Shown: positions 1-62,720, counted from the stretch's first letter. The stretch is DNA of 64,000 nucleotides from Candidatus Doudnabacteria bacterium (GCA_023246055.1 JAHFJD010000001.1:2781-66780); one strand, 5' to 3'. A program made the numbers and translations. Notes: generated by a model from the sequence alone, not told the origin.

Positions 1-182
1 TTTGAAATATGAATAGTTAGAGTTTTATTTTTGAGGCTCACAATATTGATGTCTTCGTCTGGGAAAATTTTTTTTATTTCTTGGCGGCATAAATCCAACA
101 CCTTGGCAATCTCGATTTGGCGGGAGAGGTCGTCTTTCTTGCTAAATTTGGCAGACAGGATATGGGAAAGTTTATTGAACAT
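1..182 (-). CDS. DUF721/DciA-like protein (partial, runs off left edge)
   Basis: Minus-strand ATG at 180-182; translation MFNKLSHILSAKFSKKDDLSRQIEIAKVLDLCRQEIKKIFPDEDINIVSLKN... resembles DUF721 proteins that usually follow recF; no stop within window. Confidence 0.45.
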   Translation of the reverse strand, partial: MFNKLSHILSAKFSKKDDLSRQIEIAKVLDLCRQEIKKIFPDEDINIVSLKNKTLTIHIS

Positions 183-1278: not shown

Positions 1279-1370
1279 AAACTATGACCCCCTCTCAATC
1301 TCCCCCTCACGAGGGGGAGAAGAAAGAGGAGGCCTTACTAATCCATATACAAAATTCAATATTCGATATT

Positions 1371-2465: not shown

Positions 2466-2674
2466 AATATTAAATTAATCTTTTAATAATAGTAGTATTC
2501 ATAATATATCCTGTGTAAATGTTTATATTGAAATTTAACACCATATTTATTTGGGCAAACATATAATTGATATCAAAGGAGAGTGTTGTTTACATGGGGA
2601 GAGGGTGTTGGAAACTTCTCTCTTAAAAAAATCCCAGAAAACTTATCCCTAATTTTTCCCCACCTCATTCCCAA
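2466..2674. promoter_or_regulatory. AT-rich dnaA-dnaN intergenic region, candidate oriC/DUE
   Basis: 209 bp strongly AT-rich between dnaA and dnaN; only weak DnaA-box-like 9-mers (TTATCCCTA at 2645-2653). Confidence 0.3.
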
Positions 2675-11991: not shown

Positions 11992-12312
11992 TTATTTTTT
12001 CAGGGCGGATTTTAGTTTGGGCAGATTTTTTTTTACAACATTCCAGACACGCTTATAGTTTATCTTGAAGTACTCGTGAATTATCCGATTTCTTAAACCG
12101 ACTATATCGTGCCACGGAATGTCAGGATATCGATTGCGGAATTTCGCGGACAAGTGATTTGCCGCCTCGCCAATTATCTCTAATTCCCGGACCACACCGG
12201 CACGACGAAGTTTGTCTCGTCTAAAATTTTCGCAACTCATCCTCAACACAAACGTTTCAGCTTCCGCGATAGCCTCTAAGATATGTTTTTTATATAAAGT
12301 ATCTTTATCCAT
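11992..12312 (-). CDS. HepT-like toxin (DUF86, RX4HXY motif)
   Basis: 106 aa; RNRIIHEY motif; overlaps cognate nucleotidyltransferase gene. Confidence 0.7.
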   Translation of the reverse strand: MDKDTLYKKHILEAIAEAETFVLRMSCENFRRDKLRRAGVVRELEIIGEAANHLSAKFRNRYPDIPWHDIVGLRNRIIHEYFKINYKRVWNVVKKNLPKLKSALKK

Positions 12313-12781
12313 AAAGTATCTTTAAATCTTTGACCGCCTGCGGTTCGACAAGCTCATCCAGGTCCCCTTCCTCAGCCAAATCAACCTTCAAGTTTAGTGC
12401 GTCTTGGAGTATATTCTGTAGTCGGATAACATCTAAAAGGCTTTTATCGTTTTGTTTATGAAACCGAACTAGCACATCCAAATCACTATCGGGCCGCGCT
12501 TCGCCTCTGGCATAGGAGCCAAAAATACCGGCGAACTCAACGTCATTTTTTTTGAGAATCGGTACAGCTATTTTTTTGATTTGCTCCAAAGTCAAAACTG
12601 GCTTCGGATGGCTTGCAAACGGCGCCTCTGAAGCTTGATCAATGAGTTCTGGATTGGTTTTGGCAGCAAACCGCAAAAGTGCGCGAACGAATTCGCTGCG
12701 ATTGGCAAAACCATAGTTTTTTGTCGTTTGATCAACAAACTTGGCTTGTTCAGCAGTTAAGCTGATATTTACAGTCTTCAT
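12305..12781 (-). CDS. MntA-like nucleotidyltransferase antitoxin with N-terminal ribbon-helix-helix domain
   Basis: GSYARGEARPDSDLDVLV NTase motif; N-terminal NRSEFVRALL RHH-like segment; start placed at second Met (MKTVNISL) because upstream Met lies in GC hairpin repeat. Confidence 0.65.
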   Translation of the reverse strand: MKTVNISLTAEQAKFVDQTTKNYGFANRSEFVRALLRFAAKTNPELIDQASEAPFASHPKPVLTLEQIKKIAVPILKKNDVEFAGIFGSYARGEARPDSDLDVLVRFHKQNDKSLLDVIRLQNILQDALNLKVDLAEEGDLDELVEPQAVKDLKILYG

Positions 12782-12825
12782 AGATCCATTATAGCAAACT
12801 TTGGCAAGGTTTGTCAACCCCCTCT

Positions 12826-13323
12826 TCATCTCCCCCTTGATAAGGGGGAGAAAGAGTGAGGGTGATTGGCTCCGCAGATGGCCAGGGCTAGGGCGTCGGC
12901 CGCGTCATCGGGCTTGGGGATGGATTTCAGGTTCAGAAGAGTTTTAACCATGTACTGAACCTGTTTTTTGTCGGCCTTGCCGTAATTGGTTAAAGAGTTT
13001 TTAACTTGCAGGGGGGTGAATTCTGTGATGGGGATTTTATTTTGTCTCGCGCACAGCAACACCACACCGCGTGCCTGTGCGACCGCGATTGCAGTTTTTA
13101 CATTGTTATAAAAAAATACAGATTCCACCGCGACCTTGCCTGGCTTGTGTTTGCGGATTAACGAATTTAAATCCTTGTAAATTTCTTCGAGTCGTTCTGG
13201 TAGTGAATTATTTTTCGAAGTTTTCAGGCAGCCATATTCAATCGCGCGCAATTTGCCTTTTGCGGATTCAATGACTGCGTAACCAGTTGTGGCAGTGCCG
13301 GGATCAATACCGAGTATTATCAT
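12826..13323 (-). CDS. ruvC: Holliday junction resolvase RuvC
   Basis: 165 aa, MIILGIDPGTATTGYAV N-terminus, RuvC fold residues. Confidence 0.9.
   Translation of the reverse strand: MIILGIDPGTATTGYAVIESAKGKLRAIEYGCLKTSKNNSLPERLEEIYKDLNSLIRKHKPGKVAVESVFFYNNVKTAIAVAQARGVVLLCARQNKIPITEFTPLQVKNSLTNYGKADKKQVQYMVKTLLNLKSIPKPDDAADALALAICGANHPHSFSPLSRGR
12829..12851. repeat. GC-rich hairpin repeat (family 1) TCTCCCCCTTGATAAGGGGGAGA at ruvC 3' end
   Basis: Perfect 9-bp stem seen directly. Confidence 0.8.
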
Positions 13324-26117: not shown

Positions 26118-26170
26118 CGGTCTGGTGCCCGAGCAGTTAGGGAGCGGTCTGCCTGCCCGCCACGGCCTGA
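26118..26170 (+). other. Partial duplicate of tRNA-Cys 5' half (38 nt identical to positions 1-38 of the intact gene)
   Basis: GGTCTGGTGCCCGAGCAGTTAGGGAGCGGTCTGC repeated verbatim at 26171. Confidence 0.6.
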
Positions 26171-26241
26171 GGTCTGGTGCCCGAGCAGTTAGGGAGCGGT
26201 CTGCAAAACCGCGTAGACGGGTGCAACTCCCGTCCAGACCT
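26171..26241 (+). tRNA. tRNA-Cys (anticodon GCA)
   Basis: 71 nt; acceptor GGTCTGG/CCAGACC, anticodon stem GCGGT/ACCGC, loop CTGCAAA; unusual T-loop TGCAACT. Confidence 0.7.
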
Positions 26242-26300
26242 TGGGCGATGGCAGGCGGGCAAAACCGCCATTCACGGGTGCAACTCCCGTCGTGGCCTCC
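26242..26300 (+). other. Degenerate tRNA-Cys-like 3' fragment with encoded CCA
   Basis: Shares ACGGGTGCAACTCCCGTC T-arm with the intact gene; ends CGTGGCCTCCA; lacks D-arm. Confidence 0.45.
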
Positions 26301-29859: not shown

Positions 29860-29927
29860 GACCCACTGAGGGATTCGAACCCCCGACTCCCGCCGTGTAA
29901 AGGAAGAACTCCCCGCCTGCCAAAGCC
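29860..29927 (-). other. tRNA 3'-half-like fragment (T-arm GGGGGTTCGAATCCCTC + acceptor strand) without matching 5' acceptor
   Basis: Minus strand ...GGCGGGAGTCGGGGGTTCGAATCCCTCAGTGGGTCA; no complementary 5' strand found. Confidence 0.35.
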
Positions 29928-29930
29928 TGG

Positions 29931-30004
29931 TGGCCATTGCTGGGTTCGAACCAGCGACCTTTCGGATGTAAACCGAATGCTCTAACCAGCTGAGCTAAAT
30001 GGCC
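29931..30004 (-). tRNA. tRNA-Val (anticodon UAC), CCA encoded
   Basis: GGCCATTTAGCTCAGCTGGTTAGAGCATTCGGTTTACATCCGAAAGGTCGCTGGTTCGAACCCAGCAATGGCCACCA. Confidence 0.85.
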
Positions 30005-30040
30005 AATGGCGGGCAGGTACCACTGAGTTAAGTGCGCGAA

Positions 30041-30205: not shown

Positions 30206-31690
30206 ATGACTTCTAAAAAACTTTTTTTTCTTCTGGTTTTTCTGCTTCCCATCAGCACTGGGAAAGTGTTTTTTTCGGAGCAGAGTTTTTTTTATGGTTA
30301 CCATATTTTTTATCATAGTTTTTGGGTATTCTTGACAGATATTGTATTTTGTGGTTTGATGTTGGCTTGGTTATGGGAAACCTTGACCCCCACTTCATCT
30401 CCCCCTCATGAAGGGGAGAAAATAGAAGGAGTCCCACACCAAATCACCTCAGCTTTCCTAAAAGACAGAGTTTATCAGGGATTGTTGTTTTTTTGGCTTA
30501 TTTTAGCGATTTCAACAATTCTTTCACGTGAAATGTTGCTGTCTTGGTATGGATTGGCTAGGTTTACTGAATATTTTTTCGTCTTCATCTATATCAGGGA
30601 AAATTTTCACATTTCACGTGAAATGAAGTCTTTTTTTTGGCTTATTTTAGCGATTTCTCTACTTGAAACTGGTCTTGGTATAGCCCAATACGTAAATCAA
30701 AGTTCCCTGGGTTTGAAATATCTTGGAGAATCACTTCTAAAACCAGGCATGCCAGGCGTAGCAGAATTTATTTCTCACGGAATTGGGAGCTGGCAAAACA
30801 TTTCACATGAAATGTTGGTTATGAGAGCTTACGGAACATTGCCTCACCCAAATATTTTGGGAGTTTTTCTGTTTACTGGACTGCTTGCCAATATTTGGCT
30901 TATTTATGGCACTTTGAAAGGGTTTCGATCATGGGAAATCTCTTTATTTCCAGCCCTGATCCTGGTTTCCACAGGAATGGTGTTAACTTTTTCACGCGCA
31001 GTTTGGATAGTTATTGCCCTGGTTTTGCTGAGTTTACTTGTTATGCTCCGCATCCGCAAATATCGGGTTTTTGAGACAATGCGCAGCGGGCGAAGAATGG
31101 CAGAACAGCAGGGTATTTATCTGCCCAAACATATCGCAGCCCTTATTCTGGCTTTGCTTGTGGCTTTGGGTTTGAATTTTTTTCTGTTTGGCGAGCAAAT
31201 TAAGGATCGAATAGTGGGGCGAGGTGTGGCAGCTATCGCAGAACAGGAAAGTTTTGTGGATCGCCAGCATTTCAACTCCATTTCACGTGAAATGATCAAA
31301 ACCCATCCACTGCTCGGCGTTGGGCTGCGAAATTTCGTAGCAAGAATGGATGAGTTTAACAGGCCTGCCCGCCATGCTTCGCAAGGCGATGCGGGCGGGG
31401 GAGAGCGCTTATTCCCTCAACAGCACCAGCCAGTGCACAATATTTATTTCCTGGTAGCTGCGGAAACTGGACTTGCTGGTCTCGCGGCATTGTTGTTTCT
31501 ACTCTATAATATTGTGCGACACGCAATCCAAAAGATCAGAGCCGGGGATAGGGGAGAGCGGACCATCTTGCTTGTATTGTTTTTCGGATTTCTATGTTTA
31601 GGGCTCGTTGACCACTATTTTGTTTCGATTCAGCCATCAGCCATGCTGTTTTGGATAGTGGCGGGACTCGTCTCTGCCAAAAGCGTATAA
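30206..31690 (+). CDS. O-antigen ligase/Wzy_C family polytopic membrane protein (paralogue of 6188-7654) with repeat insertions
   Basis: 494 aa; HNIYFLVAAETGLAGLAALLF Wzy_C motif; SSPPHEGEKIEG from GC hairpin; four copies of TTTCACGTGAAATG. Confidence 0.6.
   Translation: MTSKKLFFLLVFLLPISTGKVFFSEQSFFYGYHIFYHSFWVFLTDIVFCGLMLAWLWETLTPTSSPPHEGEKIEGVPHQITSAFLKDRVYQGLLFFWLILAISTILSREMLLSWYGLARFTEYFFVFIYIRENFHISREMKSFFWLILAISLLETGLGIAQYVNQSSLGLKYLGESLLKPGMPGVAEFISHGIGSWQNISHEMLVMRAYGTLPHPNILGVFLFTGLLANIWLIYGTLKGFRSWEISLFPALILVSTGMVLTFSRAVWIVIALVLLSLLVMLRIRKYRVFETMRSGRRMAEQQGIYLPKHIAALILALLVALGLNFFLFGEQIKDRIVGRGVAAIAEQESFVDRQHFNSISREMIKTHPLLGVGLRNFVARMDEFNRPARHASQGDAGGGERLFPQQHQPVHNIYFLVAAETGLAGLAALLFLLYNIVRHAIQKIRAGDRGERTILLVLFFGFLCLGLVDHYFVSIQPSAMLFWIVAGLVSAKSV
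30398..30419. repeat. GC-rich hairpin repeat (family 1) TCTCCCCCTCATGAAGGGGAGA inside CDS
   Basis: Seen directly. Confidence 0.8.
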
Positions 31691-34798: not shown

Positions 34799-34800
34799 TC

Positions 34801-34880
34801 TACTACGAAATACGAAACGGTACGAACATACGAAAACGTACCTTTCGTACTTTCGTAAAAATTCGTAATTTCGTAGTATT
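34801..34880. repeat. TACGAA/TTCGTA-rich palindromic element (family 3), copy A, ends at ATG 34881
   Basis: tactacgaaatacgaaacggtacgaacatacgaaaacgtacctttcgtactttcgtaaaaattcgtaatttcgtagtatt; exact reverse complement of copy at 46097-46173. Confidence 0.8.
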
Positions 34881-38479: not shown

Positions 38480-40477
38480 ATGGATTTAAGTACTTTATCC
38501 CAGCAGCTGAATATGTCAGTGCAGGAACTGCGCGCGAAGATGCGAGTGGCCGGATTTCGTGTGTCGCTGAAAGCACGCAAGGTGGAGAACAGTCTCGCAA
38601 GAGATATTTACAAGAAGCTTTCCGGGGTTGTGCCAGAGGCAGAGCCGAAAGCAGTCAAAATCACAAAGATTAGTGTGCCGCCGTTTATTACGGTCAAAGA
38701 ATTGGCAGAAAAATTGCATGAGCCTGTCACTGCGGTGATCAAAAAACTCATTCAGAATGGAGTGATGGCGACAATCAACGAGGAGATAGATACAGAAACC
38801 GCTGCCATCATCGCGGCAGAGTATGGAGTTGAGGTCGAAGCAGAACAAGCCAGTGGAGAGAGCGTGAAACTGGGCCTTGGTTATGTATCTGAACAAATGG
38901 GCCGGGAAAACGCGACAGATCTCGAGACTCGCCCGCCGATTGTGGCTGTGATGGGACATGTTGATCATGGCAAGACCACTTTGCTTGATACTATCCGCAA
39001 AACCAAAGTGGCAGCCTCGGAAGCCGGTGCTATTACTCAGCACATTGGTGCGTATCAAATTGAGGTTCCGCAGGAACCGAAATCCCGAGGAGGCGGAGCC
39101 GAGCTCGGGATCCCCGCCTCCGCTGGGGATGATTTTACTGGACGTAAAATCACCTTTCTTGACACTCCGGGCCACGAAGCTTTTGCAGCAATGCGAGCTC
39201 GCGGCGCTAATGTCACAGACATCATTGTTCTAGTCGTGGCGGCAGACGATAGCGTGAAGCCGCAAACTTTGGAGGTTATCAATCGAGCCAAGCTGACCAA
39301 AACGCCAATGATAGTGGCGATCAACAAAGTTGACAAACCAGAAGCCAATCCGGAGCGAGTGAAAGCGGATTTGGTAAATCTCGGAGTAACCATCGAGGAG
39401 TGGGGTGGCGGAACGCCGGCTGTGAATATTTCTGCAAAAACCGGACTCGGCATTGAAAAACTTTTGGAAACTATTCTGCTGGTCGCAGAGGTTGAAGAAC
39501 TCAAAGCCAATCCCAAAGGCCAGACCCTGGGGACAGTAATCGAATCGCATCTGTCCAAAGGACAGGGGGCGGTGGCCACAGTCATCGTGCAAAACGGAAT
39601 TTTGCGAAATGGCGACAACGTGATGGTGGGGAGCACTCACGGCCGGGTAAGGAGCATGGAAGATGCAGCCGGTAAAAGGGTGAAAGAGGCCGGGCCAGCT
39701 CTGCCTGTGGTTATTTCTGGACTCTCAGACCTACCCGAAGTCGGCGATATTTTGCGCGTGGCCCTGACACTCGAAGAGGCCAGAGCTGAAGCCATTGCGC
39801 TCGCGAAACTCGAGCGCGCCAAGCGGCTCTTGAGCCGCAGCGAGCTCAAACCTGATCCATCGACGCGCGAGCTCAAGCTCATCTTGCGTGCTGACATGGC
39901 AGGCAGTCTCGGGGCGATTACTGATGCTCTGGGGAAGCTTGGCACAGAAGAGGTGAAGGTGAATATTGTTGACCAGAAAGTGTCCGAGATTACAGAATCA
40001 GACATTCTCCTCGCGGAAAATACTGGGTCGCCGATCATCGGATTTCACACGAGGTTTACTCCGGGAGCCGCGAAACTAGCCAAGCAGAAAAATATCACAG
40101 TGGATATCTATGAAGTGATCTATGAACTCATTGAGGACGTGACATCAGCCCTTCTCCGGATGATGCCCATGGTGATTGTGGAAACAGTTTTGGGCAAGGC
40201 CAAAATCAAGGCCGTGTTCCGGACCGAAAAAGACGGTGGCATAGTCGGTGGCGAGGTGGCTGATGGCAAGATTGTAGACAAGAAAAAATTCCGCATCATG
40301 CGCGAGCAGCAATTGGTTGGCGAGGGGAAAATCGAAGAGCTGCAGCAGAACAAGGTCGAAGTCGGAGAGGTGGCTGTCGGTCGGGAATTTGGCCTGAAGA
40401 TTCGGTCAACAGTCCCCGTTAAGAGCGGTGATGTGCTGGAAATTTACGATGAGAGTGTGAAAAAGAAAGGCACGTAG
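38480..40477 (+). CDS. infB: Translation initiation factor IF-2
   Basis: 665 aa; GTPase G1-G4 motifs (GHVDHGKTT, DTPGH, NKVD), IF-2 C-terminal domains. Confidence 0.95.
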   Translation: MDLSTLSQQLNMSVQELRAKMRVAGFRVSLKARKVENSLARDIYKKLSGVVPEAEPKAVKITKISVPPFITVKELAEKLHEPVTAVIKKLIQNGVMATINEEIDTETAAIIAAEYGVEVEAEQASGESVKLGLGYVSEQMGRENATDLETRPPIVAVMGHVDHGKTTLLDTIRKTKVAASEAGAITQHIGAYQIEVPQEPKSRGGGAELGIPASAGDDFTGRKITFLDTPGHEAFAAMRARGANVTDIIVLVVAADDSVKPQTLEVINRAKLTKTPMIVAINKVDKPEANPERVKADLVNLGVTIEEWGGGTPAVNISAKTGLGIEKLLETILLVAEVEELKANPKGQTLGTVIESHLSKGQGAVATVIVQNGILRNGDNVMVGSTHGRVRSMEDAAGKRVKEAGPALPVVISGLSDLPEVGDILRVALTLEEARAEAIALAKLERAKRLLSRSELKPDPSTRELKLILRADMAGSLGAITDALGKLGTEEVKVNIVDQKVSEITESDILLAENTGSPIIGFHTRFTPGAAKLAKQKNITVDIYEVIYELIEDVTSALLRMMPMVIVETVLGKAKIKAVFRTEKDGGIVGGEVADGKIVDKKKFRIMREQQLVGEGKIEELQQNKVEVGEVAVGREFGLKIRSTVPVKSGDVLEIYDESVKKKGT

Positions 40478-41864: not shown

Positions 41865-41947
41865 TACTACGAACTACGAATTTTTACGAAAGTACGAAAG
41901 GAGACAAGGTTTTTTTGTAATTTCGTATTTATTAGTAATTTCGTAGT
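41865..41947. repeat. TACGAA-rich element (family 3), copy B, ends at ATG 41948
   Basis: tactacgaactacgaatttttacgaaagtacgaaagg...taatttcgtagt; first 37 nt match copy C. Confidence 0.7.
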
Positions 41948-46096: not shown

Positions 46097-46173
46097 ACTA
46101 CGAAATTACGAATTTTTACGAAAGTACGAAAGGTACGTTTTCGTATGTTCGTACCGTTTCGTATTTCGTAGTA
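46097..46173. repeat. TACGAA-rich element (family 3), copy C, between dnaK stop and dnaJ ATG; identical to reverse complement of copy A
   Basis: actacgaaattacgaatttttacgaaagtacgaaaggtacgttttcgtatgttcgtaccgtttcgtatttcgtagtag. Confidence 0.8.
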
Positions 46174-46174
46174 G

Positions 46175-49356: not shown

Positions 49357-49438
49357 ATACTACGAAATACGAATCTCTACGAAAATACGAATAAAATTCA
49401 TGTTTCGTAATTTCGCATCCCTTTCGTATTTCGTAGTA
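49357..49438. repeat. TACGAA-rich element (family 3), copy D, abutting hrcA ATG
   Basis: atactacgaaatacgaatctctacgaaaatacgaataaaattcatgtttcgtaatttcgcatccctttcgtatttcgtagta. Confidence 0.7.
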
Positions 49439-49447
49439 ATTATAAAT

Positions 49448-50876: not shown

Positions 50877-53761
50877 TTCAGAGATCTCGCTAAATATTGT
50901 CCCGTGTAGGACCGTTTCACGCGGGCGACTTCTTCTGGCGTGCCTTCCGCCACAATCTCACCGCCCTTATCCCCGCCCTCGGGTCCCAGATCAATGACCC
51001 AGTCAGCGTATTTGATGACATGCAGATTGTGTTCGATCACGATCACAGTGTTGCCCTTGTCCACGAGCTTTGAAAGCACAGTGAGCAAGCGCTTCACGTC
51101 CTCGAAATGCAGTCCGGTGGTCGGTTCATCGAGGATGTACAGGGTTTTGCCGGTTTGGGTGCGGGCCAGTTCCGTGGCGAGTTTGATGCGCTGGGCTTCC
51201 CCGCCCGACAGGGTCGTGGCGCTTTGGCCGAGGTGCATGTAGCCAAGGCCGACCAGGGATAATACGTCGAGTTTGCGGTAAATAATGGGAATATTGCGGA
51301 AAAAGATTCGCGCCTCATCCACAGTCATTTCCAGGACATCAGAGATATTTTTGCCTTTGTAATGAATGTCTAGGGCTTCTTTGTTGTAACGTTTGCCCTT
51401 GCATTCTTCACAAGCCACATAGACGTCCGGCAGGAAATGCATTTCGATCTGGATCACGCCATCTCCAGCGCAAGCCTCGCAACGGCCACCTTTGACATTG
51501 AATGAAAATCGCCCGGGCTCATAGCCGCGCATTTTGGCTTCCGGTGTTTCGGCAAATAAATCACGGATATAGGTAAACACCCCGGTATAGGTTGCGGGGT
51601 TGGATCGCGGGGTGCGCCCGATTGGGGATTGATCGATGTTGATGACCTTGTCAATGTTATCAAGACCCAAGATTTTTTTGTGCTCACCGGGCTGGTCTTT
51701 GGCGTTATAGAAATAAGCGGATAAAGCCTTGGCCAAAATGTCATTGAGCAGAGTGGATTTTCCCGAACCGGACACGCCAGTGATACTGATAAATTTTCCC
51801 AAAGGGATGCTGACGTCCAAATTTCTCAAGTTGTGTTCGCGAGCGCCATAGATGGTGATTTTTTTGCCGTTACCGGTTCTGCGCCGGGCCGGGATCGGGA
51901 TGCTTTCCTGCCCCGCAAGGTAACGACCGGTGAGTGATGTAGGATTTTCTTTGATGTCAACTGGAGTGCCCGCAGCTACGACCTCACCTCCGTGTTTGCC
52001 AGCTCCGGGCCCAATGTCCACAACCCAGTCAGCGCTCGCTATGGTATCCTCGTCATGCTCCACAACGATCACGGTATTGCCGAGATCACGGAGTGTTCGC
52101 AGGGTATCGAGTAAACGATCATTGTCCCGTTGATGCAATCCGATCGACGGTTCGTCGAGAATATACAGGACTCCGGTCAGGCCGGACCCGATTTGGGTGG
52201 CGAGCCTGATGCGCTGGGCTTCCCCGCCCGAGAGCGTGTCAGCGCCGCGGTTCAGAGTTAAATATTCCAGACCGACATTGTCGAGGAAATTCAGCCGGGA
52301 CCGAATTTCCTTGATGATTTGCTTACCGATTTTCAAATCCTTCTCGGACAGCTGACCTGCGAGGAGTTCAAAGAATTTCCGCAGTGCATCTACAGTGAGG
52401 CTTGATACATCCATAATGGATTTGCCCGTCTCGCCTCGGCTCGCCGAGGTCGGATCCATAACCGTGACCGCTAATATTTCGGGACGGAGTCTTTTACCCT
52501 GACATGTGGGGCAGGTTTTGAGGCGCATGTATTGCTCAATTTCTGACCGCATGTAGTCCGAATCGGTTTCGCGATATCGGCGCATAAGATTTGGCACCAC
52601 GCCCTCAAAATCGAGATTGTTGTCTTTGGAGCCATAAAGAATAATGTCGAGAAATTTTTTGTTGAGTGTTTTTACCGGGACATTGGCCGAAAAGCCATGA
52701 GCTGTCGCGACGTCATCGATGATCCGATCATACCAGGATAACCTTGCCGTAGTTTTGCTCCACGGACGAATCGCGCCTTCAGCGAGGGACAATCGCGGAT
52801 TGGGAATCACGAGTTCTGGATCAACCTCAAGTTTGGTCCCGAGTCCCGTACAATCAGGACAAGCGCCATGCGGCGAGTTGAAGGAAAAATTTCGCGGATG
52901 AAGTTCTGCCAAACTGACATGTCCTTCGGGGCAAGCGAATTTCTGTGAAAGAGTTAGCGTCTGGTTTGTATCTGGAAAATAGACGACCGCGGTTTCATTT
53001 CCCAGATCGAGAGCAGTCTCCAAAGAGTCGCTGATGCGAGCCCGATCATTGCGCTCGATAGTCAAGCGATCCACCACCACATCCACTGAATGTTTTTTCT
53101 TTTTGTCGAGATCGGTTGCGAGTGCTTCTGCGATATCTATGAATGTGCCGTCGATTCGCACTCTGGCATAGCCGGCTTTTTTTATTTCCTCGAAGACGTG
53201 TTTGTGTTCTCCCTTGCGGTCGGATATGAAAGAGGCTAGGAGCATGAGTTTGGTGCCGCGGGGGTAGTCCAGGATTTGGTCGACCATGGCGGTCACGGTT
53301 TGGCCGGCAATTTTTTTCCCGCAAACTGGGCAATGCGGCACGCCGATCCGCGCAAACAGTAACCGCAAATAGTCATAGATCTCCGTAACCGTCCCCACTG
53401 TCGAGCGCGGATTATGGGAGGCAGATTTTTGGTCAATGGAAATCGCCGGACTAAGACCCTCGATTTGCTCGACGTCTGGTTTGTCCATGAGCCCTAAAAA
53501 TTGCCTGGCATAAGCCGAGAGACTCTCCACATATCGCCTCTGGCCCTCGGCATAAATCGTGTCAAAAGCCAAAGAGGATTTTCCAGAGCCGGAGATGCCG
53601 GTGAATACGATGAGTTTGTTACGCGGCAAATCCAGGTCAATGTTTTTGAGATTGTGAACCTTGGCCCCGCGGATTTTGATCAAACCAGCGCTCCCCCCTT
53701 CTGGCCTTAAAATAAGGGAGGAATGAGGCGGGTTATTAGATTTAGAATTACGTTTGGTCAT
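50873..53761 (-). CDS. uvrA: Excinuclease ABC subunit A
   Basis: 962 aa; two ABC ATPase modules, zinc fingers, UvrA signatures. Confidence 0.95.
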
Positions 53762-54588: not shown

Positions 54589-56598
54589 ATGGCAAACTTG
54601 GCCATAAAACTCAAAAATCTTCCTCAAGCCCCCGGGGTGTATCTGTTCAAAAACAACCGCGGCGAGGTTTTGTACGTTGGTAAAGCTAAAAATCTGAAAA
54701 ATCGCGTCAGGTCATACTTTCAGAATGGCAGAGATTTCGAAGCGCGACTCACGGTCATGAAGCAAAACATTGCGGATCTTGATTACACAGTGGTGTCCTC
54801 GGAAATCGAGAGCCTGATGCTCGAAAATAATCTCATCAAGCAATATCAGCCACGATTCAATGTGCTCATGCGAGATGATAAAAATTATCAGTTTATCAAG
54901 CTCGATTATTCTTTTGAAATCCCACAGATTTACACAGTGCGTCAGGTTCCCCTCCTCGTGAGGAGGGGTCAGGGGAGGTTAACCCCCTCCCCGCCCGCCT
55001 CGCAAGCGAGAGCGTTGCGGGCAGGTTCCTCTCCCCCTCACCTGCCCGACTTCGTTTGGGCGAAGTCCAGGCGGGCGGGCGAGGGGGAGAAACTTTCAAG
55101 GTATTTCGGGCCTTATACCTCCAGCCTGGCAGTCAAACAAACTTTGCACCTGTTGAAAAGCATTTTCCATCTCTGCCGCAACAAAAAGATCATTACCAAA
55201 CCCTGTTTCGCCTATCAACTCGGCCGTTGCAGTGGGGTGTGTGTTGGCAAGGTCTCATTACCTGAGTATCTTGAGACTTTTAAGCAAGTCGAAGGTTTTC
55301 TCAAGCATCGGCAAACCGAGATGATGAAAATTCTGCGCGGGGAAATGACCACTGCCGCCACGCGCCACAAATTTGAGAGGGCAGCCATGATCCGGGATAC
55401 GATTCGGTCACTAGAATATATGTGGCAAAAGCAAAAAATCGTGACAGCGAGAAATGAAAACCACGATTATCTCGGGTTGTTCAAACTGGCAACACAAGCG
55501 GTGGTGTGTTTGTTTGTGGTGCGGGGAGGGAGACTCATCCATACTGAACATTTTGAACTGGTGCATGACAATTCTTCATCACCGGAGATTATGGAGCGAT
55601 TTATCACCCAGTATTATGAACAAACCAGCGATATTCCTCAGGAGCTTATCCTCTCTGAAGAATTACCCCGCGTCCCACTCCTGGAAAAATTTCTCACTCG
55701 GCTCACAGGTCAGCGGATTACATTGATTGTTCCGCACCGCGGCAAAAAATCTGGATTGTTAAAACTTGCTGCGGAAAATGCCAGACTCTATCACGAGCGG
55801 CAAATGCCGGATTTTCAAAAAGAAAAACCCAAGCAAACACTCCATGCTTTATCGAGGTTTCTTGAACTTCCAAAAATCCCGATGCGCATTGAAGGTTATG
55901 ACATTTCCAACATCCAAGGAATCAATCCAGTCGGATCGATGGTAGTGTTTACTGCTGGCGTGCCGGACAAAAGCCAATATAGAAAATTTAAAATCAGACT
56001 CCCAGAAACCCCCAATGATTTTGCTATGATGCGCGAGATGCTGGAGCGGAGATTTCGTCACCTCCCCCTCATGAGGGGGAGGATGGGTGGGGGTCGCGGA
56101 GCAAATACACCCACAACCTTCCCTCCCCCTCCTCACGAGGAGGGGGACAATACCTCTTGGCTTCTCCCCGACCTCATCATTATCGACGGCGGCAAAGGGC
56201 AGCTAAATGCTGCTGTTTCCATACTGAAACACAATGATCTGAAAATTCCTGTGATAGCGCTTGCGAAACGACTCGAAGAAATTTTTTTGCCGGGGCGAAA
56301 GAATCCCCTGGTGCTTCCCCCAGGCAACCGGGCGTTATTTCTCCTTCAGCGTATTCGGGATGAGGCTCATCGTTTTGCTGTGACATTTTTCCGGAGCCGT
56401 CACCGGCGCGCTCAAATTTATTCTCGCCTCGAGGATATTTTTGGGGTTGGACCAGTAACTCGAAAAAAATTGATCAAAAAATTCGGCAGCGCTATAGCGG
56501 TCAGACGCGCTTCTCTTGACGCTCTTACGGCAGAGATCGGTCCGCGACTTGCAAAAAATATCAAGGAGCAACTGCCCCCATATCAAGCGAAGCCCTGA
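54589..56598 (+). CDS. uvrC: Excinuclease ABC subunit C carrying two in-frame GC-rich repeat insertions
   Basis: 669 aa; GIY-YIG N-terminus (GVYLFKNNRGEVLYVGKAKNLKNR), UvrC Endo-V/RNaseH-like and HhH C-terminus; insertions at 54940-55095 and 56060-56160 encode P/G/E-rich segments. Confidence 0.9.
   Translation: MANLAIKLKNLPQAPGVYLFKNNRGEVLYVGKAKNLKNRVRSYFQNGRDFEARLTVMKQNIADLDYTVVSSEIESLMLENNLIKQYQPRFNVLMRDDKNYQFIKLDYSFEIPQIYTVRQVPLLVRRGQGRLTPSPPASQARALRAGSSPPHLPDFVWAKSRRAGEGEKLSRYFGPYTSSLAVKQTLHLLKSIFHLCRNKKIITKPCFAYQLGRCSGVCVGKVSLPEYLETFKQVEGFLKHRQTEMMKILRGEMTTAATRHKFERAAMIRDTIRSLEYMWQKQKIVTARNENHDYLGLFKLATQAVVCLFVVRGGRLIHTEHFELVHDNSSSPEIMERFITQYYEQTSDIPQELILSEELPRVPLLEKFLTRLTGQRITLIVPHRGKKSGLLKLAAENARLYHERQMPDFQKEKPKQTLHALSRFLELPKIPMRIEGYDISNIQGINPVGSMVVFTAGVPDKSQYRKFKIRLPETPNDFAMMREMLERRFRHLPLMRGRMGGGRGANTPTTFPPPPHEEGDNTSWLLPDLIIIDGGKGQLNAAVSILKHNDLKIPVIALAKRLEEIFLPGRKNPLVLPPGNRALFLLQRIRDEAHRFAVTFFRSRHRRAQIYSRLEDIFGVGPVTRKKLIKKFGSAIAVRRASLDALTAEIGPRLAKNIKEQLPPYQAKP
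54940..55095. repeat. Long GC-rich composite hairpin insertion (family 1 + CCCGCCCGCC/GGCGGGCGGG arms) inside uvrC
   Basis: ttcccctcctcgtgaggaggggtcaggggagg...ccccgcccgcctcgcaagcgagagcgttgcgggcagg...caggcgggcgggcgagggggagaaac. Confidence 0.7.
56061..56148. repeat. Two adjacent GC-rich hairpin repeats (family 1) inside uvrC: CCTCCCCCTCATGAGGGGGAGG and TCCCCCTCCTCACGAGGAGGGGGA
   Basis: Seen directly; encode HLPLMRGRMGGGRGANTPTTFPPPPHEEGD. Confidence 0.8.
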
Positions 56599-58715: not shown

Positions 58716-58833
58716 AAGGGCGCGTGGCGGAACTGGCCCGCCCAAATTTGCAAAGCAAATTTCAGTCGGGCAGGCAGATTTGCCCCGCATAGCTGGTGCC
58801 TGTATGGCGGAACTGGTATACGCGTACGTTCAC
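58716..58833 (+). other. Two tandem degenerate copies of the tRNA-Leu(CAG) 5' portion (pseudo-tRNA remnants)
   Basis: 58716-58800: GGGCGCGTGGCGGAACTGGCCCGCC... with Leu-like D-arm and variable arm but no T-arm; 58800-58833: 28 nt identical to tRNA positions 5-32 (GTATGGCGGAACTGGTATACGCGTACG). Confidence 0.55.
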
Positions 58834-60389
58834 CCCGCACTAACTCTTTGCAAGTTTAACAAATTACTTATTCTTGATGGGCGTATGGCGGAACTGGTAT
58901 ACGCGTACGCTTCAGGAGCGTATGGCCGCAAGGCCGTGAGAGTTCGAGTCTCTCTACGCCCACCACCCAAGTAATTTCTCCGATCGGCGATCAAGTCGTA
59001 AGGTTCTTTTAGCTTAAGGATCACATTTTCCGCGCTCACCAACCGGTTCGAGGTCAACGTTTCCACCAAACAATGCTTTTCTTCTTCATTTGCCATTTCG
59101 TAGCTTGAATATGCGGTTTTTGCGAGTTCGAGAACATTGAGGACGTGATCGGGAACGGCAGCCATTTTCTCTGGGGCTCCCAGCTGCTGCTCTAGATCTT
59201 TCTTCTCCAACAGCAGAAGCCGATTCCGATTGTCAAACGCTTCTTTATCGAGGACTTGATCCAGGTAGGCGTCGGTCAGGCGAGCCAACCGCTGTTCAAT
59301 GTTCGAAATCCGCAATCGCAAACCCTTCTGTGCCGATTCCGTATTCTGCTTCCAGTCCGCTTTCAGTTTTTCAATGGCTTGCCGAGCCCGGACTTCTTCC
59401 AGCGGCTCCAGTTCCAGCTTGAACAATTCCGCCCTAACAGCGTAGTCCACGGCCTCCTCTCGTACGCAACGGGTCGGACATGCCGAAGTATGGCAACGGT
59501 AATAAACATGGCCTTTCTGCCGCTCGCCGATCATGGTTGCCTGACAGAGGCTGCACGCCAGTAGCCGCCGGAAAGCAAACCAATGCCGGAAATTCCTCGG
59601 GTGATAACGTCCATCGAGTATGGCTTGCACACGATCGAAGGTAGGCTTCGGTACCAGCGGTACGTGAGCGCCGGGAAAGGATTCTCCAGTGCTGTGAATG
59701 AGAATCACACCGACATAGAAGGGATCCCGTAACATCAAGGCCCACCGGGCCCGCTGCACGGAGCGGTTCCTGGTGTTTCTCAAGCCTCGCTTCGTCATTT
59801 CCTCCGTCAGTTGATCAAGGTTGTATCTTCCGGATGCGTACAGATCGAAACCCAGACGAACGAGTGGCCCTTTGACCGGGTCGATGGCCTTGGGTTGACC
59901 GGCTCCTTGATCAAGGTAACCCAACGGGGCAGGGCGCGGATAGATACCTTGCTTGAGCCGGCCATAGAATCCTTTGCGCGTCTCTTCGCGTAGGTTTCGG
60001 ATATAGTCGGCGGCCACGACAGCTTGAATGTCAGCGGTCAGCCGCCCGCCGCGCGTGTTCAGATCCAGGCTTTCATTGGCAAACCAAACATCAGTCCCCT
60101 GATCGATGAGTTCTCCGAGATCCGCCCAGTCCCGAAGGTTCCTGGCGCTGCGGTCGATCTTGTGAATGACCACACCGGTCGCCTTGCCGGCTTTCAATGC
60201 TTTCAGCATTTGATTGAAAATCGGTCGTCCGCGTTTGGCAGCGGTTTCTCTTTCTTCAAACCATTCTCCAACATCGAACCCGCGGGTTCGGCAGAATCGC
60301 TCGATGGCGCCTCGCTGTTCTTGCAAAGAGACGCCTTTTTCGCCTTGTTTGGGCGTAGAAACACGGATGTAACCAAACACTTGTTTCAT
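58830..60389 (-). CDS. Large serine recombinase (resolvase/invertase N-terminal domain + recombinase + zinc-ribbon domains)
   Basis: 519 aa; YIRVSTPKQGEKGVSLQEQ catalytic Ser motif; C-terminal ~47 codons read antisense through tRNA-Leu so true stop may be earlier; high local GC. Confidence 0.85.
   Translation of the reverse strand: MKQVFGYIRVSTPKQGEKGVSLQEQRGAIERFCRTRGFDVGEWFEERETAAKRGRPIFNQMLKALKAGKATGVVIHKIDRSARNLRDWADLGELIDQGTDVWFANESLDLNTRGGRLTADIQAVVAADYIRNLREETRKGFYGRLKQGIYPRPAPLGYLDQGAGQPKAIDPVKGPLVRLGFDLYASGRYNLDQLTEEMTKRGLRNTRNRSVQRARWALMLRDPFYVGVILIHSTGESFPGAHVPLVPKPTFDRVQAILDGRYHPRNFRHWFAFRRLLACSLCQATMIGERQKGHVYYRCHTSACPTRCVREEAVDYAVRAELFKLELEPLEEVRARQAIEKLKADWKQNTESAQKGLRLRISNIEQRLARLTDAYLDQVLDKEAFDNRNRLLLLEKKDLEQQLGAPEKMAAVPDHVLNVLELAKTAYSSYEMANEEEKHCLVETLTSNRLVSAENVILKLKEPYDLIADRRNYLGGGRRETRTLTALRPYAPEAYAYTSSAIRPSRISNLLNLQRVSAG
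58879..58962 (+). tRNA. tRNA-Leu (anticodon CAG), CCA encoded
   Basis: GGGCGTATGGCGGAACTGGTATACGCGTACGCTTCAGGAGCGTATGGCCGCAAGGCCGTGAGAGTTCGAGTCTCTCTACGCCCA(CCA). Confidence 0.85.
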
Positions 60390-60470: not shown

Positions 60471-62720
60471 TTATCGTCGGATGTATCCCCCAATCGCTCG
60501 GTCGTCCAACCCAGCAAGGTGGGCATCCTTCTTCCGATTTAGAAAAGCGAAGACATGCCAATAAAGCAGTCCACGCGCCGCTTCGCTGGCGCCGGCGTGC
60601 TCCTGAAGCAACTCGTTTAGCATTCCCCAAACTTGTCCATATTGCTCGTTTCGCAATAGTACTTCTGCCAAGCGAATGGTGATCTCGACACGAAGATCCT
60701 TGTCACTGCATGTATCGGCCCATTTTCGCCATTCAGCAAAGTCCGGCTTGGTGTCCATGCGTTCTCGCCACCTGGCACGGACTACATCGTACGCGCAACA
60801 CTGTTGGAGATTGGAAGGATCCGGCCGTTCAAGTGGAAACTCGTTAGCGCTTTCGCCCAACGTTTTAAGCTGCAGCAAGATTTCCAATGACTTTACGAGG
60901 TAGTCCTGGCCTGGCTTAAATCGTAGGTATGGGTTCGCCAGAATCCACTCCAGAACGCTTTCAACGTGAGTGTTCGTGTGCCTGAATGACGACCGGAAAA
61001 AAGGCCAAATATCACCGCTGATCAGCGCAAAAGTGACTTCCGACAGGTCGTTTCCAATTCGGGAACCAGACACCAAACCATCCTGGATCGCACTTAGCAA
61101 GTCTGATTTAGTCTTATCTTTTATATCTCGCCGTACGCGGTCAACCAATCCTTGATTGATGCGCTGGACGAATGTAATCGGCTGGACGAGACTAGCGAAA
61201 AGATTCTCCGCAGTAGGATCGATTTGTGAGGCATCAACATGAATTACGCTCGCAAAACCGAACGTATCAAGATCGTCGATCAGCCGAGTGATGTCACTCT
61301 CCAGATGTTCGTTCAGGTTTTGAAATGCACTCTCAGCGGCCCTCACAAAGAGCGTCTTCGTAAATCCTAAAGGCGCATTCGAATCCAGAAGGACCAAAAG
61401 GTCGAGGAGCGCTCTTGCGCGTTTCGATAGCGACTCCAGAAAGTAGTCGCAATGGTTGTCAGATAGCCTCAGAAATTTTGATTGAGTCATCCTGACGGCG
61501 GTCCCAGGATTGCCACTTGACATCGCGGCGATGGTAGCTACGTCCACGTCACGCGGAAGGTCCATCCGATTCAAGATGGCTGCGATGTCTGAGCGCCTGA
61601 GAGGTTGAAGCTTGAGGCTCGGCAGTTCTGCCACATCCAAGGGGTAAATGGATTCGAAAATCCATACAGTACGATCCCGAGCCGGAGCGGTCTTCCCTTG
61701 TGAGGTGACCTCGCGCACAAATTCCCTGATACTGTTGGCTGCAGCAATTGGATAGGATTCGACCCATATAACAATATCCTTCGAATCCAGTTCCTCAATT
61801 AGCTTTGTACGGCCTAGACCGCTGGGATCAGCATCTGTCACCGCCCGAAAGGTGTGTTGTAGGAACTTATCCACGGAGCGAGCATCTCCCGGACTAACTG
61901 GAAAGCAGTCGCGTTCTCGATTGCGTATATAGTGCTTGATTAGCTCGCTTTTCCCCAGTCCAGGCACAGAGACAACGTCGACGAAACGAACAGTTTTAAG
62001 CGATTCTTTCAACCGTTCGTAATCACTTGATCGTAATTTGTCTAAGTACCAGGGTTTTGAAATCAGATTGTGAACACCATCTAGGTTCTGTCTTAGGAAG
62101 GTTGAAAGACTTTCTAGGTCTGGAAAGGAGGCTAGGCGTTGTTTGATGATAGACTTTAATTGGTCTGCAGCGGAGAGGTGACCGTCAATTTGCGCGCTAC
62201 GAAGCTGCTTCTTCAAAACATCGAGCAAGTTGTATTCATGGGTATAATTCGCTTTCGGTTCGCCTGCGATTCCGACATTGTCATGCGAGAGGTCATGGAG
62301 ATCCGACTTGATCTTCTGAATGTCTGAAAGATCAAGGCCAGGGCAATAGAACAGAATTTCTGGGTCGCGACGGCTTAGAAACCTTATACCCTGATTAACG
62401 AGTGCTCCCTTAAGGAATCCCTGTAAACGCTCCAACTTTTCCAAGAAGGAGTGGAGCTGGCGAGAAACTTCATCGCCAGGTAGATTCTTGACTTCACAGA
62501 CCGCTAGTCGATCTCGAAACGCCAGAACCAAGTCAGCTTGTCTCGCTTTTTGCCAGGGGAATGCCACTTCGAAGAACGCTGACAATTCACCTCGGCTATC
62601 GGTATCCAAAGTGTCCGCCCACCTCTCAATGTCTCGAATTGTGTTTAACGTAGTGGGCTTACTCACCCATTGTTTAAGAGCTCTTATCCACTTTGGATCG
62701 TCTGGAACAAAGCATCGCAT
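60471..62720 (-). CDS. NERD/PD-(D/E)xK nuclease-like domain fused to P-loop NTPase and C-terminal alpha-helical domain (candidate defence/abortive-infection protein)
   Basis: 749 aa; N-terminal ...ADLVLAFRDRLAVCEVKNLPG (D...EVK NERD-like); Walker A VSVPGLGKSELIKHY near aa 300; long helical C-terminus; ~55 % GC vs ~42 % flanks. Confidence 0.55.
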   Translation of the reverse strand: MRCFVPDDPKWIRALKQWVSKPTTLNTIRDIERWADTLDTDSRGELSAFFEVAFPWQKARQADLVLAFRDRLAVCEVKNLPGDEVSRQLHSFLEKLERLQGFLKGALVNQGIRFLSRRDPEILFYCPGLDLSDIQKIKSDLHDLSHDNVGIAGEPKANYTHEYNLLDVLKKQLRSAQIDGHLSAADQLKSIIKQRLASFPDLESLSTFLRQNLDGVHNLISKPWYLDKLRSSDYERLKESLKTVRFVDVVSVPGLGKSELIKHYIRNRERDCFPVSPGDARSVDKFLQHTFRAVTDADPSGLGRTKLIEELDSKDIVIWVESYPIAAANSIREFVREVTSQGKTAPARDRTVWIFESIYPLDVAELPSLKLQPLRRSDIAAILNRMDLPRDVDVATIAAMSSGNPGTAVRMTQSKFLRLSDNHCDYFLESLSKRARALLDLLVLLDSNAPLGFTKTLFVRAAESAFQNLNEHLESDITRLIDDLDTFGFASVIHVDASQIDPTAENLFASLVQPITFVQRINQGLVDRVRRDIKDKTKSDLLSAIQDGLVSGSRIGNDLSEVTFALISGDIWPFFRSSFRHTNTHVESVLEWILANPYLRFKPGQDYLVKSLEILLQLKTLGESANEFPLERPDPSNLQQCCAYDVVRARWRERMDTKPDFAEWRKWADTCSDKDLRVEITIRLAEVLLRNEQYGQVWGMLNELLQEHAGASEAARGLLYWHVFAFLNRKKDAHLAGLDDRAIGGYIRR

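What the first reader, a model, noticed from the sequence alone, without database searches (positions are those of the whole stretch)
54940..56160. uvrC interrupted by two separate GC-rich hairpin insertions yet still one 669-aa ORF
A ~155-bp composite hairpin (54940-55095) sits just after the GIY-YIG domain. A second double hairpin (56061-56148) sits in the C-terminal region. Both keep the reading frame, adding about 37 and 30 residues of P/G/E/R-rich sequence. Two independent insertions in one DNA repair gene argue for tolerance or selection on frame preservation.
Basis: partly seen in the sequence, partly recalled or inferred. Interest (0 to 1): 0.6.

Follow-up and report, generated by a model that had tools for sequence, protein, structure and literature searches.

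The report
Palindromic repeat insertions inside uvrC
The DNA-repair gene uvrC of this tiny-genome (CPR, Doudnabacteria-like) bacterium carries in-frame copies of short GC-rich palindromic "junk" repeats that pepper the whole genome. They sit in two floppy loops of the protein where relatives also collect such repeats. This resembles the palindromic elements of Rickettsia rather than a new kind of biology.

Summary
uvrC (54589-56598, 669 aa) is intact and holds two GC-rich hairpin tracts that some orthologues lack: 54949-55090 (46 aa, not 37) and 56061-56147 (29-31 aa). They are copies of dispersed modular palindromic repeats, not uvrC-specific oddities. The window holds 17-18 homopyrimidine/homopurine-arm hairpins, 12-13 of them in frame inside RecF, RuvC, FemAB, two Wzy_C genes and UvrC. 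IF-2 and UvrA carry other hairpin inserts. Insert 1 was built in at least four events: elements A1 and A2, plus two "B" palindromes, one nested in the loop of A2. Insert 2 is one ~90-nt composite that also occurs between genes in other Doudnabacteria. AlphaFold gives pLDDT below 50 only at the two inserts, and the catalytic residues are kept. Both sites are insertion hot spots across CPR UvrC. In a related species, three near-identical strains show empty, filled and nested-filled states of a palindrome family that also sits at uvrC site 2. The best reading is selfish or neutral REP/MITE-like repeats tolerated in permissive loops, analogous to Rickettsia palindromic elements. One puzzle remains. 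The repeat DNA is about 97% identical between orthologues whose synonymous sites are saturated, and is read in different frames.

The parts
54589..56598 (+). uvrC ORF, 669 aa, intact. The GIY-YIG, UVR, RNase H-like endonuclease and HhH domains are all present.
   Evidence: The catalytic-type residues Y18, Y29, R39, N91, D438, D533 and H594 are invariant columns in the 28-sequence alignment.
54949..55090 (+). Insert 1 as a whole. It encodes aa 121-166 (46 extra residues) in the linker between the GIY-YIG domain and the conserved YFGPY strand.
   Evidence: The AlphaFold model gives pLDDT below 50 for residues 123-166.
54949..54981 (+). Element A1: hairpin CCCCTCCTC-GT-GAGGAGGGG plus the G-rich tail TCAGGGGAGGTTA.
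   Evidence: The same unit is at the same junction in orthologue L001. The hairpin with this tail or its mirror head is seen in 27 of 33 low-GC (mostly CPR) copies found in public genomes.
54982..54989 (+). Head of element A2 (ACCCCCTC), separated from its hairpin by B1.
   Evidence: The intact form ACCCCCTCT-YRA-TCTCCCCCTC is seen at window positions 1299, 6337, 12829 and 30398, and in L001, L230 and L232.
54990..55029 (+). Element B1: a CCCGCCCGCC...GCGGGCAGG palindrome. L001 has only TCAA at this position.
55030..55040 (+). 5' arm of the A2 hairpin (TCTCCCCCTCA).
   Evidence: The arms are identical to the uninterrupted hairpins TCTCCCCCTCACGAGGGGGAGA at 1299-1320 and 6337-6358.
55041..55079 (+). 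Element B2: a 39-nt CCTGCCCGAC...GGCGGGCGGG palindrome nested in the 2-nt loop (A|C) of the A2 hairpin.
   Evidence: Analogous nested insertion is seen as a strain polymorphism in L002, L003 and L004.
55080..55090 (+). 3' arm of the A2 hairpin (CGAGGGGGAGA). Its last bases supply codons E167 and K168.
56061..56147 (+). Insert 2: one composite repeat of 87 nt (29 codons, about aa 491-520). It consists of hairpin CCTCCCCCTC-AT-GAGGGGGAGG, spacer GGGGGTCGCGGAGCAA..ACCTTCCCT, and hairpin TCCCCCTCCTC-AC-GAGGAGGGGGA. It lies in the loop before the beta-strand carrying D533.
   Evidence: The same architecture occurs in Doudnabacteria loci L053 and L058, apparently between genes (not checked against a gene map), and in metagenome contigs L179 and L224. 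The AlphaFold model gives pLDDT below 50 for residues 498-521.

Best explanation
The two GC-rich tracts are in-frame insertions of short, modular palindromic repeat elements. These elements are dispersed through this Doudnabacteria-like CPR genome and its relatives.

The elements come in at least two families:
- Type A has a homopyrimidine arm, a 2-7 nt loop and a homopurine arm, often with an ACCTCCCC head or GGGGAGGT tail.
- Type B has CCTGCCCGCC...GGCGGGCAGG arms.

They are copied around the genome by an unidentified, non-autonomous mechanism (inferred). They land both between and within genes, and also inside the loops of earlier copies.

Inside genes only the harmless copies survive: those whose net length is a multiple of three (or is corrected by a neighbouring 1-nt indel), that carry no stop codon in the frame used, and that fall in loops the protein can spare.

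In UvrC the spared places are two. One is the linker after the GIY-YIG nuclease domain. The other is the loop preceding the catalytic beta-strand of the RNase H-like endonuclease domain. The inserts are translated into disordered P/G/E/R/S-rich loops and the enzyme probably remains functional (inferred). For the host they are most likely neutral or slightly costly passengers.
For: Shown by tool results:
- The inserts are absent from some syntenic orthologues.
- The same units recur at unrelated loci in the window. The top 10-mer is TCTCCCCCTC/GAGGGGGAGA, with 8 copies. There are 17-18 A-type hairpins, 12-13 of them inside 7 genes and always ORF-preserving. IF-2 has a 24-aa hairpin insert relative to 2lkc and UvrA has a 10-aa one.
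- Insert 2 is a roughly 90-nt composite that also occurs in other Doudnabacteria genomes, apparently between genes.
- The intact A2 hairpin (loop AC) exists at 1299 and 6337. In uvrC that loop holds a 39-nt B element.
- Three strains with at least 99.87% identity (L004, L002, L003) show empty, 49-nt and 76-nt nested states of one intergenic site. The family involved has a 108-nt copy in frame at that species' uvrC site 2 and a 100% identical copy 7 kb away.
- AlphaFold gives pLDDT below 50 only at residues 123-166 and 498-521. The catalytic columns are invariant.
- Across orthologues that are mostly CPR where a source names them, the median linker is 9.5 aa at site 1 (114 sequences) and 20 aa at site 2 (94 sequences). 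Dozens carry unrelated repeat-derived peptides at these sites.
- The same hairpin is read as PLLVRRG in the window and PPPREEG in L001, through two compensating 1-nt indels. The peptide is therefore not what is conserved.
Against: - No transposase or RAYT was found among about 55 ORFs of the window, so the copying mechanism is unknown.
- No clear target-site duplication flanks the A and B elements in uvrC.
- The repeat DNA at site 1 is about 97% identical between the window and L001 (my count from the sequences printed: about 60 of 62 aligned nt). Four-fold degenerate sites of the same genes are only 34.5% identical.
- Element A2 sits at the same codon, in the same orientation and frame, in five orthologues.
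- Simple neutral decay of an old junk insertion does not explain the last two points. They require repeated re-insertion, gene conversion, or selection on the DNA.
- Translation of the loops and activity of the enzyme are inferred, not shown.
Confidence: 0.82

Rival explanations
1. The palindromes are functional nucleic-acid motifs, for example binding sites for a conserved CPR protein, or DNA/RNA structures affecting replication, transcription or translation. They would be kept by selection on the nucleotide sequence even inside coding regions.
For: - Nucleotide identity at site 1 is about 97% against 34.5% at four-fold degenerate sites.
- Arms are perfectly paired, and orthologous A2 hairpins differ by compensatory changes: TC/GA, TT/AA, TA/TA.
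- The same element sits at the same site of HisRS in two genomes whose proteins are 66% identical.
- B-type arms bracket two tRNA genes.
Against: - The elements are present or absent among close orthologues and among strains.
- Many unrelated repeat families occupy the same two UvrC sites.
- Copies occur in every context: within genes, between genes and nested in each other.
- No Rfam family matches.
- No terminator-like context is called at the inserts.
Confidence: 0.1
2. The inserts are adaptive protein features: selected flexible, charged linkers that tune UvrC domain movement or partner binding.
For: - They lie at a domain boundary and next to the active-site strand.
- Long linkers at both sites are common in CPR UvrC.
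Against: - The same DNA is translated in different frames in orthologues.
- Insert sequences at these sites are unrelated between lineages.
- Identical DNA occurs elsewhere, apparently between genes.
- The predicted loops are unstructured.
Confidence: 0.04
3. The inserts are an assembly or sequencing artefact, with chimeric joining of repeat-containing reads.
For: - The exact protein is known from a single contig.
- Hairpin repeats are difficult for short-read assembly.
Against: - Both inserts keep the frame and are free of stop codons in the frame used.
- An independent ENA assembly (L001) has the same element at the same junction.
- Other species carry analogous inserts that are reproduced in 3-4 independent assemblies.
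- Seven other genes in the window show the same phenomenon.
Confidence: 0.02
4. The inserts are spliced or bypassed elements (intein, intron, or translational hop) that are not part of the mature protein.
For: - The structures are very stable: -97.5 kcal/mol inside an ORF.
- CPR rRNA genes are known, from my own knowledge, to carry intervening sequences.
Against: - All intragenic copies are in frame and free of stops, which removal would not require.
- At 46 and 29 aa they are far too short for inteins, and no intein domain is found.
- No intron or ribozyme family is found.
Confidence: 0.02

Closest known systems
Rickettsia palindromic elements (RPEs; Ogata et al. 2000, as summarised in PMC10969869)
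   Same: - Dispersed palindromic repeats inserted in frame into many unrelated, often essential, protein-coding genes of a small, gene-dense genome.
- ORFs and folds are preserved and the inserts sit in tolerant positions.
- They are regarded as selfish DNA.
   Different: - RPEs are units of about 100-150 bp, each with its own conserved encoded peptide, and are confined to Rickettsia.
- Here the units are 20-45 nt GC-rich hairpins that combine and nest into composites of 60-140 nt.
- The encoded peptide is not conserved, because the frame differs between orthologues.
- The host is a CPR bacterium.
- No sequence comparison with RPE consensus sequences was made.
REP / BIME elements (repetitive extragenic palindromes; survey in PMC3733652)
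   Same: - Imperfect or perfect palindromes of 20-40 nt in many copies.
- They cluster into mosaics.
- Hairpin potential is maintained across variants.
   Different: - REPs are by definition extragenic. Most carry a GTAG or CGTC tag and are linked to RAYT transposases.
- Here about 70% of copies are intragenic.
- No tag was found.
- No RAYT was found in the window.
Bacterial MITEs that occur intragenically (ERIC, QMITE1 of Coxiella, Correia; review PMC10969869)
   Same: - Small non-autonomous repeats that can create in-frame fusions.
- Presence/absence polymorphism between strains.
- A short A/T-rich repeat flanks the polymorphic copy in L002 and L003.
   Different: - Typical MITEs are 100-400 bp with terminal inverted repeats matching a parent IS.
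- No parent IS was seen, and no target duplication was seen for the A and B units in uvrC.
GC clusters of yeast mitochondrial DNA (from my own knowledge; not tested here)
   Same: Short GC-rich palindromic mobile clusters in a lower-GC genome, occasionally in frame within a protein gene (var1).
   Different: - They occur in a eukaryotic organelle and are unrelated in sequence.
- This is a resemblance recalled from memory only.

Membership tests
Rickettsia palindromic elements (RPE) | Palindromic repeat found in frame in many unrelated protein-coding genes with the ORF preserved | tested here: met
   RecF, RuvC, FemAB, two Wzy_C genes and UvrC. IF-2. UvrA.
Rickettsia palindromic elements (RPE) | Unit of about 100-150 bp encoding a family-specific conserved peptide | tested here: not met
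   Units are 20-45 nt and modular. The same hairpin is read as PLLVRRG in the window and PPPREEG in L001.
Rickettsia palindromic elements (RPE) | Sequence homology to RPE-1..10 and occurrence in Rickettsia | not tested
   The host is CPR/Doudnabacteria-like. No RPE consensus sequences were available for comparison.
REP / BIME | High-copy palindromes of 20-40 nt forming mosaics | tested here: met
REP / BIME | Extragenic location | tested here: not met
   12-13 of 17-18 A-type copies lie inside ORFs.
REP / BIME | GTAG or CGTC tetranucleotide tag at one end (PMC3733652) | tested here: not met
   No consistent tag was found at the 18 copies.
REP / BIME | Associated RAYT (Y1 transposase) in the genome | tested here: inconclusive
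   None was found among about 55 ORFs of the 64-kb window. The rest of the genome was not available.
MITE | Target-site duplication and presence/absence polymorphism | tested here: inconclusive
   No duplication is evident for the A and B units in uvrC. A related-species palindrome family shows empty, filled and nested alleles with flanking AATAAA / ATAAA.
MITE | Terminal inverted repeats matching an autonomous IS | not testable with these tools
   There is no IS in the window, and the complete genome is not held.
Intein / intron / other RNA family | Splicing domains or a recognised ribozyme or intron structure | tested here: not met
   Pfam shows only UvrC domains. Rfam gathering-level hits in the window are tRNAs only. 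The inserts are 46 and 29 aa.

The most novel reading that the evidence does not exclude
CPR bacteria may harbour a class of mini-palindromes that home repeatedly to the same codon positions of conserved housekeeping genes (UvrC sites 1 and 2, the HisRS loop). The copies would be kept near-identical at the DNA level across deep divergence, by targeted re-insertion or by gene conversion driven by an unknown sequence-specific enzyme. The encoded peptide would be free to change frame. Under this reading they are a site-specific, coding-compatible mobile or maintained DNA system, and they may also be linked to tRNA gene flanks, rather than passively tolerated junk.
Probability: 0.2. Interest if true: 0.7.

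Novelty: new variant of a known kind. Interest (0 to 1): 0.45.

Why it matters
- It extends the 'selfish DNA inside protein-coding genes' phenomenon, classically known from Rickettsia, to the Candidate Phyla Radiation. The literature searches run here found no description of it in CPR.
- It explains a common source of odd P/G/E/R-rich low-complexity loops and length variation in CPR proteins. This matters for annotation, alignment, phylogenetics and structure prediction of these uncultured organisms.
- It maps permissive loops in UvrC.
- The same-site recurrence and the DNA-level conservation give a concrete handle for finding the unknown copying or conversion mechanism.

Tried and rejected
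- **Stop-free design.** I tested whether homopyrimidine/homopurine arms make the hairpins stop-free in all frames. The arms cannot encode stops, but the loops do (for example CGTGAGG and CATGAGG contain TGA). 77.5% of frames are open across the hairpins, against 78.1% for random windows of the same length. Inserts 1 and 2 each have only 3 of 6 frames open. Rejected.
- **Single long MITE.** Self-BLAST of the inserts finds only matches of about 20 nt elsewhere in the window, so the units are short modules, not one 150-bp element.
- **Known RNA family.** Rfam at gathering level gives only tRNAs.
- **Intragenic terminators.** None of the terminator-like calls coincide with the inserts.
- **Phage vector.** The core hairpin has 0 matches in viral contigs.
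- **Cross-phylum identity of the core hairpin.** The many Acidobacteriota hits lack the CPR head or tail (1 of 81, against 27 of 33 in low-GC genomes). They appear to be a separate family sharing the 20-mer.
- **Metagenome scan with GGGGGTCGCRGAGCAA.** It returned mostly chance hits. Only 3 of 121 had the composite context.
- **Closer relatives or the source record.** The nearest orthologue is 59-63% identical. The encoding contig of P0001 is not retrievable, so no strain-level empty site for this genome could be found.
- **Transposase search.** Pfam on about 55 ORFs found only a large serine recombinase at 58830-60389.
- **Further strain polymorphisms.** None were found among the fetched low-GC loci beyond L002, L003 and L004.

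Full report
**Observation.**
- The window carries a single 669-aa ORF at 54589..56598 (+). It has the full UvrC domain set: GIY-YIG, UVR, two RNase H-like UvrC domains and HhH.
- Two GC-rich tracts stand out, with GC up to 0.71 and 0.63 against a window mean of 0.47.
- Tract 1 folds into four tandem hairpins (dG -97.5 kcal/mol, z = -6.25, 0 of 200 shuffles as stable).
- Tract 2 has two perfect hairpins, at 56061-56082 and 56124-56147.
- The core pattern is over-represented, with 3 matches against 0.16 expected. GC-rich hairpins as a class number 17 against 0-6 in simulations.

**Are they insertions?** Yes.
- The host is a CPR bacterium near Candidatus Doudnabacteria. The nearest UvrC orthologues are 59-63% identical.
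- Syntenic loci (dnaK-grpE-hrcA ... uvrA-uvrC-SBP) were fetched for several orthologues.
- At site 1, orthologue L003 reads VRSI-EKNFRNKNK-YFGPY. The window reads VRQV-[46 aa]-EKLSR-YFGPY.
- At site 2, L232 reads RRFKTNWPLPDL. The window has 29-30 extra residues there. T. maritima UvrC (2nrt) aligns across the site with a 31-residue gap in the query.
The 30 aa given for insert 2 is right.

**Anatomy of insert 1 (54949-55090).** It is compound.
- A1 is the hairpin CCCCTCCTC-GT-GAGGAGGGG plus the tail TCAGGGGAGGTTA.
- A2 is the head ACCCCCTC plus the hairpin TCTCCCCCTC-AC-GAGGGGGAGA.
- There are two B-type palindromes (CCYGCCCGCC...GGCGGGCAGG).
- B1 (40 nt) separates the A2 head from the A2 hairpin. 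Orthologue L001 has only TCAA at that position.
- B2 (39 nt) sits exactly in the two-base loop of the A2 hairpin. The uninterrupted form of that hairpin occurs at 1299-1320 and 6337-6358.
- L001 carries A1+A2 (63 nt) at the identical junction. The window lineage therefore added 75 nt in two further events, each a multiple of three.

**Anatomy of insert 2 (56061-56147).**
- It is one composite: hairpin, then GGGGGTCGCGGAGCAA..ACCTYCCCT, then hairpin.
- The same architecture occurs in another Doudnabacteria genome (L053, L058), apparently between genes, and in metagenome contigs L179 and L224.

**Genome-wide context.**
- TCTCCCCCTC/GAGGGGGAGA is the most frequent 10-mer in the window, with 8 copies.
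- Of 17-18 A-type hairpins, 12-13 lie inside genes, always leaving the ORF open. The genes are RecF and RuvC (C-terminal tails), FemAB (2 copies), two Wzy_C membrane proteins (4 and 1 copies) and UvrC.
- IF-2 carries a 24-aa GC-hairpin insert in its G domain relative to 2lkc.
- UvrA carries a 10-aa hairpin insert that L001 and L003 lack.
- Highly conserved DnaK and GrpE have none.
- About 86% of the window is coding, so the intragenic share (about 70%) is a little below random expectation. That fits insertion followed by purifying selection.

**Mobility.**
- In the P0004 species, three independent assemblies with at least 99.87% identity differ at one intergenic site.
- L004 is empty there. 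L002 has a 49-nt palindrome (TCCAGCACCTTCC...GGAAGGTGCTGGA) flanked by AATAAA / ATAAA. L003 has the same palindrome with a further 27-nt palindrome nested in its loop.
- A 108-nt member of that family sits in frame at that species' uvrC site 2. A 100% identical copy lies 7 kb away.
- These CPR palindromes are therefore gained or lost on strain timescales, they nest in hairpin loops, and they occupy the very UvrC site in question.
- Caveat: this is a different sequence family from the window's A and B units, and the direction (gain or loss) is not known.

**Effect on the protein.**
- An AlphaFold2 model built with 28 orthologues (mean pLDDT 78.6) has pLDDT below 50 only at residues 123-166 and 498-521, which are the two inserts. 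The flanking strands and helices are confident.
- Y18, Y29, R39, N91, D438, D533 and H594 are invariant alignment columns. By index arithmetic on the 2nrt alignment, D438, D533 and H594 correspond to the D367/D429/H488 triad of T. maritima UvrC. That residue numbering is from my memory.
- The gene therefore looks functional. This is an inference.

**Hot spots.**
- Across the 120 best orthologues, the site-1 linker has a median of 9.5 aa (maximum 67) and the site-2 linker a median of 20 aa (maximum 52).
- Dozens carry peptides that are recognisable translations of several unrelated palindromic repeat families, for example TPSSSPPYKGGE, VILSEAKDL...QNDK and SLRGAKQRSNL...ARND.
- A2 lies at the same codon, in the same orientation and frame, in L001, L230, L231, L232 and the window. 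The arms differ by compensatory changes.

**Unresolved point.**
- Between the window and L001, four-fold degenerate sites are 34.5% identical, which is saturated.
- The shared A1+A2 DNA is about 60 of 62 nt identical plus two 1-nt indels. Those indels shift the reading frame across the hairpin, giving PLLVRRG in the window and PPPREEG in L001.
- The window's A2 arms are identical to other A2 copies in the same genome.
- HisRS shows the same pattern in two genomes whose proteins are 66% identical.
- This rules out selection on the peptide. It argues for repeated re-insertion at hot spots, gene conversion among copies, or selection on the DNA itself. The data here cannot separate these three.

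**Mechanism and rivals.**
- The best-supported reading is non-autonomous REP/MITE-like selfish repeats filtered by selection to permissive loops (confidence about 0.8).
- The rivals and their confidences are a functional nucleic-acid motif (about 0.1), adaptive linkers (about 0.04), an assembly artefact (about 0.02) and spliced or bypassed elements (about 0.02).
- No transposase was found in the window. There is no Rfam family, no terminator context and no phage copies.
- The idea that the arms make the elements intrinsically stop-free failed: 77.5% of frames are open, against 78.1% for random windows.

**Comparison and novelty.**
- The closest known system is the Rickettsia palindromic elements, which are in-frame palindromic repeats in many genes (PMC10969869 citing Ogata et al. 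2000).
- This case differs in unit size and modularity, GC-richness, lack of a conserved peptide, and host.
- It fails REP criteria on extragenic location and on GTAG/CGTC tags (PMC3733652).
- Literature searches found no description of the phenomenon in CPR.
- I rate it a new variant of a known kind, of moderate interest.

Noticed in passing
window 26119-26300: tRNA-Cys (ARAGORN 26170-26242, not reported by Rfam at gathering level) is bracketed by B-type arms CCTGCCCGCCA (26152) and TGGCAGGCGGG (26249). An exact duplicate of its 5' half precedes it (26119-26152). A second, divergent 3' half follows it (26259-26300). It looks like a palindromic element carrying or splitting a tRNA gene.
   Followed up: partly
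window 29860-30017: The same architecture occurs in the opposite orientation. tRNA-Val (29928-30004, minus strand) is flanked by CCCGCCTGCCA (29911) and TGGCGGGCAGG (30007). An overlapping partial tRNA-Val-like copy at 29860-29935 is called by ARAGORN but not by Rfam.
   Followed up: partly
window 34799-34880, 41865-41947, 46097-46174, 49357-49440: A separate AT-rich palindromic repeat of about 80 nt, built of TACGAA/TTCGTA units and bounded by TACTACGAAAT...ATTTCGTAGTA. At the first three sites it fills the whole intergenic gap. It ends directly at the ATG of dnaJ, hrcA, a CBS-domain gene and a DAGK-like gene, with no obvious Shine-Dalgarno sequence. It could be an operator or promoter cassette, or another repeat family.
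   Followed up: partly
window 39068-39139 (IF-2, aa 197-220): A 24-aa in-frame insert (PQEPKSRGGGAELGIPASAGDDFT) in the IF-2 G domain relative to solved IF-2 structures. It is encoded by a different GC-rich hairpin (GGAGGCGGAG...CCGCCTCC).
   Followed up: yes
window 52424-52453 and 53687-53713 (uvrA, minus strand): UvrA has two short extra segments relative to the L001 and L003 orthologues: [10 protein letters not shown], encoded by the hairpin CCTCGGCGAGCCGAGG, and ILRPEGGSA.
   Followed up: partly
window 58830-60389 and 58879-58965: The 3' end of a large serine recombinase gene (Resolvase + Recombinase + Zn ribbon domains) overlaps tRNA-Leu(CAG). A 749-aa ORF with no Pfam match lies next to it at 60471-62720. 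This may be an integrated mobile element at the right end of the window.
   Followed up: no
window 30522, 30612, 31281 (inside the Wzy_C gene 30206-31690): The 12-nt palindrome TTTCACGTGAAA occurs three times within one membrane-protein gene.
   Followed up: no
L003 11344-11451 and 18161-18268; L002, L003 and L004 around 3680-3760: In Ca. Doudnabacteria (P0004 species), the palindrome in uvrC site 2 has a 100% identical 108-nt copy 7 kb away. Three near-identical strains show empty, 49-nt and 76-nt (nested) alleles at one intergenic site, flanked by AATAAA / ATAAA.
   Followed up: yes
L014 about 5332 and L024 about 7067: Histidyl-tRNA synthetase of two CPR genomes (proteins 66% identical) carries the same A1-type element at the same codon: GGRYDNL.GMF[.TSPNPSSRGGE..]PAVG.
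   Followed up: partly
window 172-4102: The window contains the dnaA-dnaN-recF cluster plus rnpA and yidC, so it probably spans the chromosomal replication origin region. A HepT/MNT toxin-antitoxin pair lies at 11992-12829.
   Followed up: no
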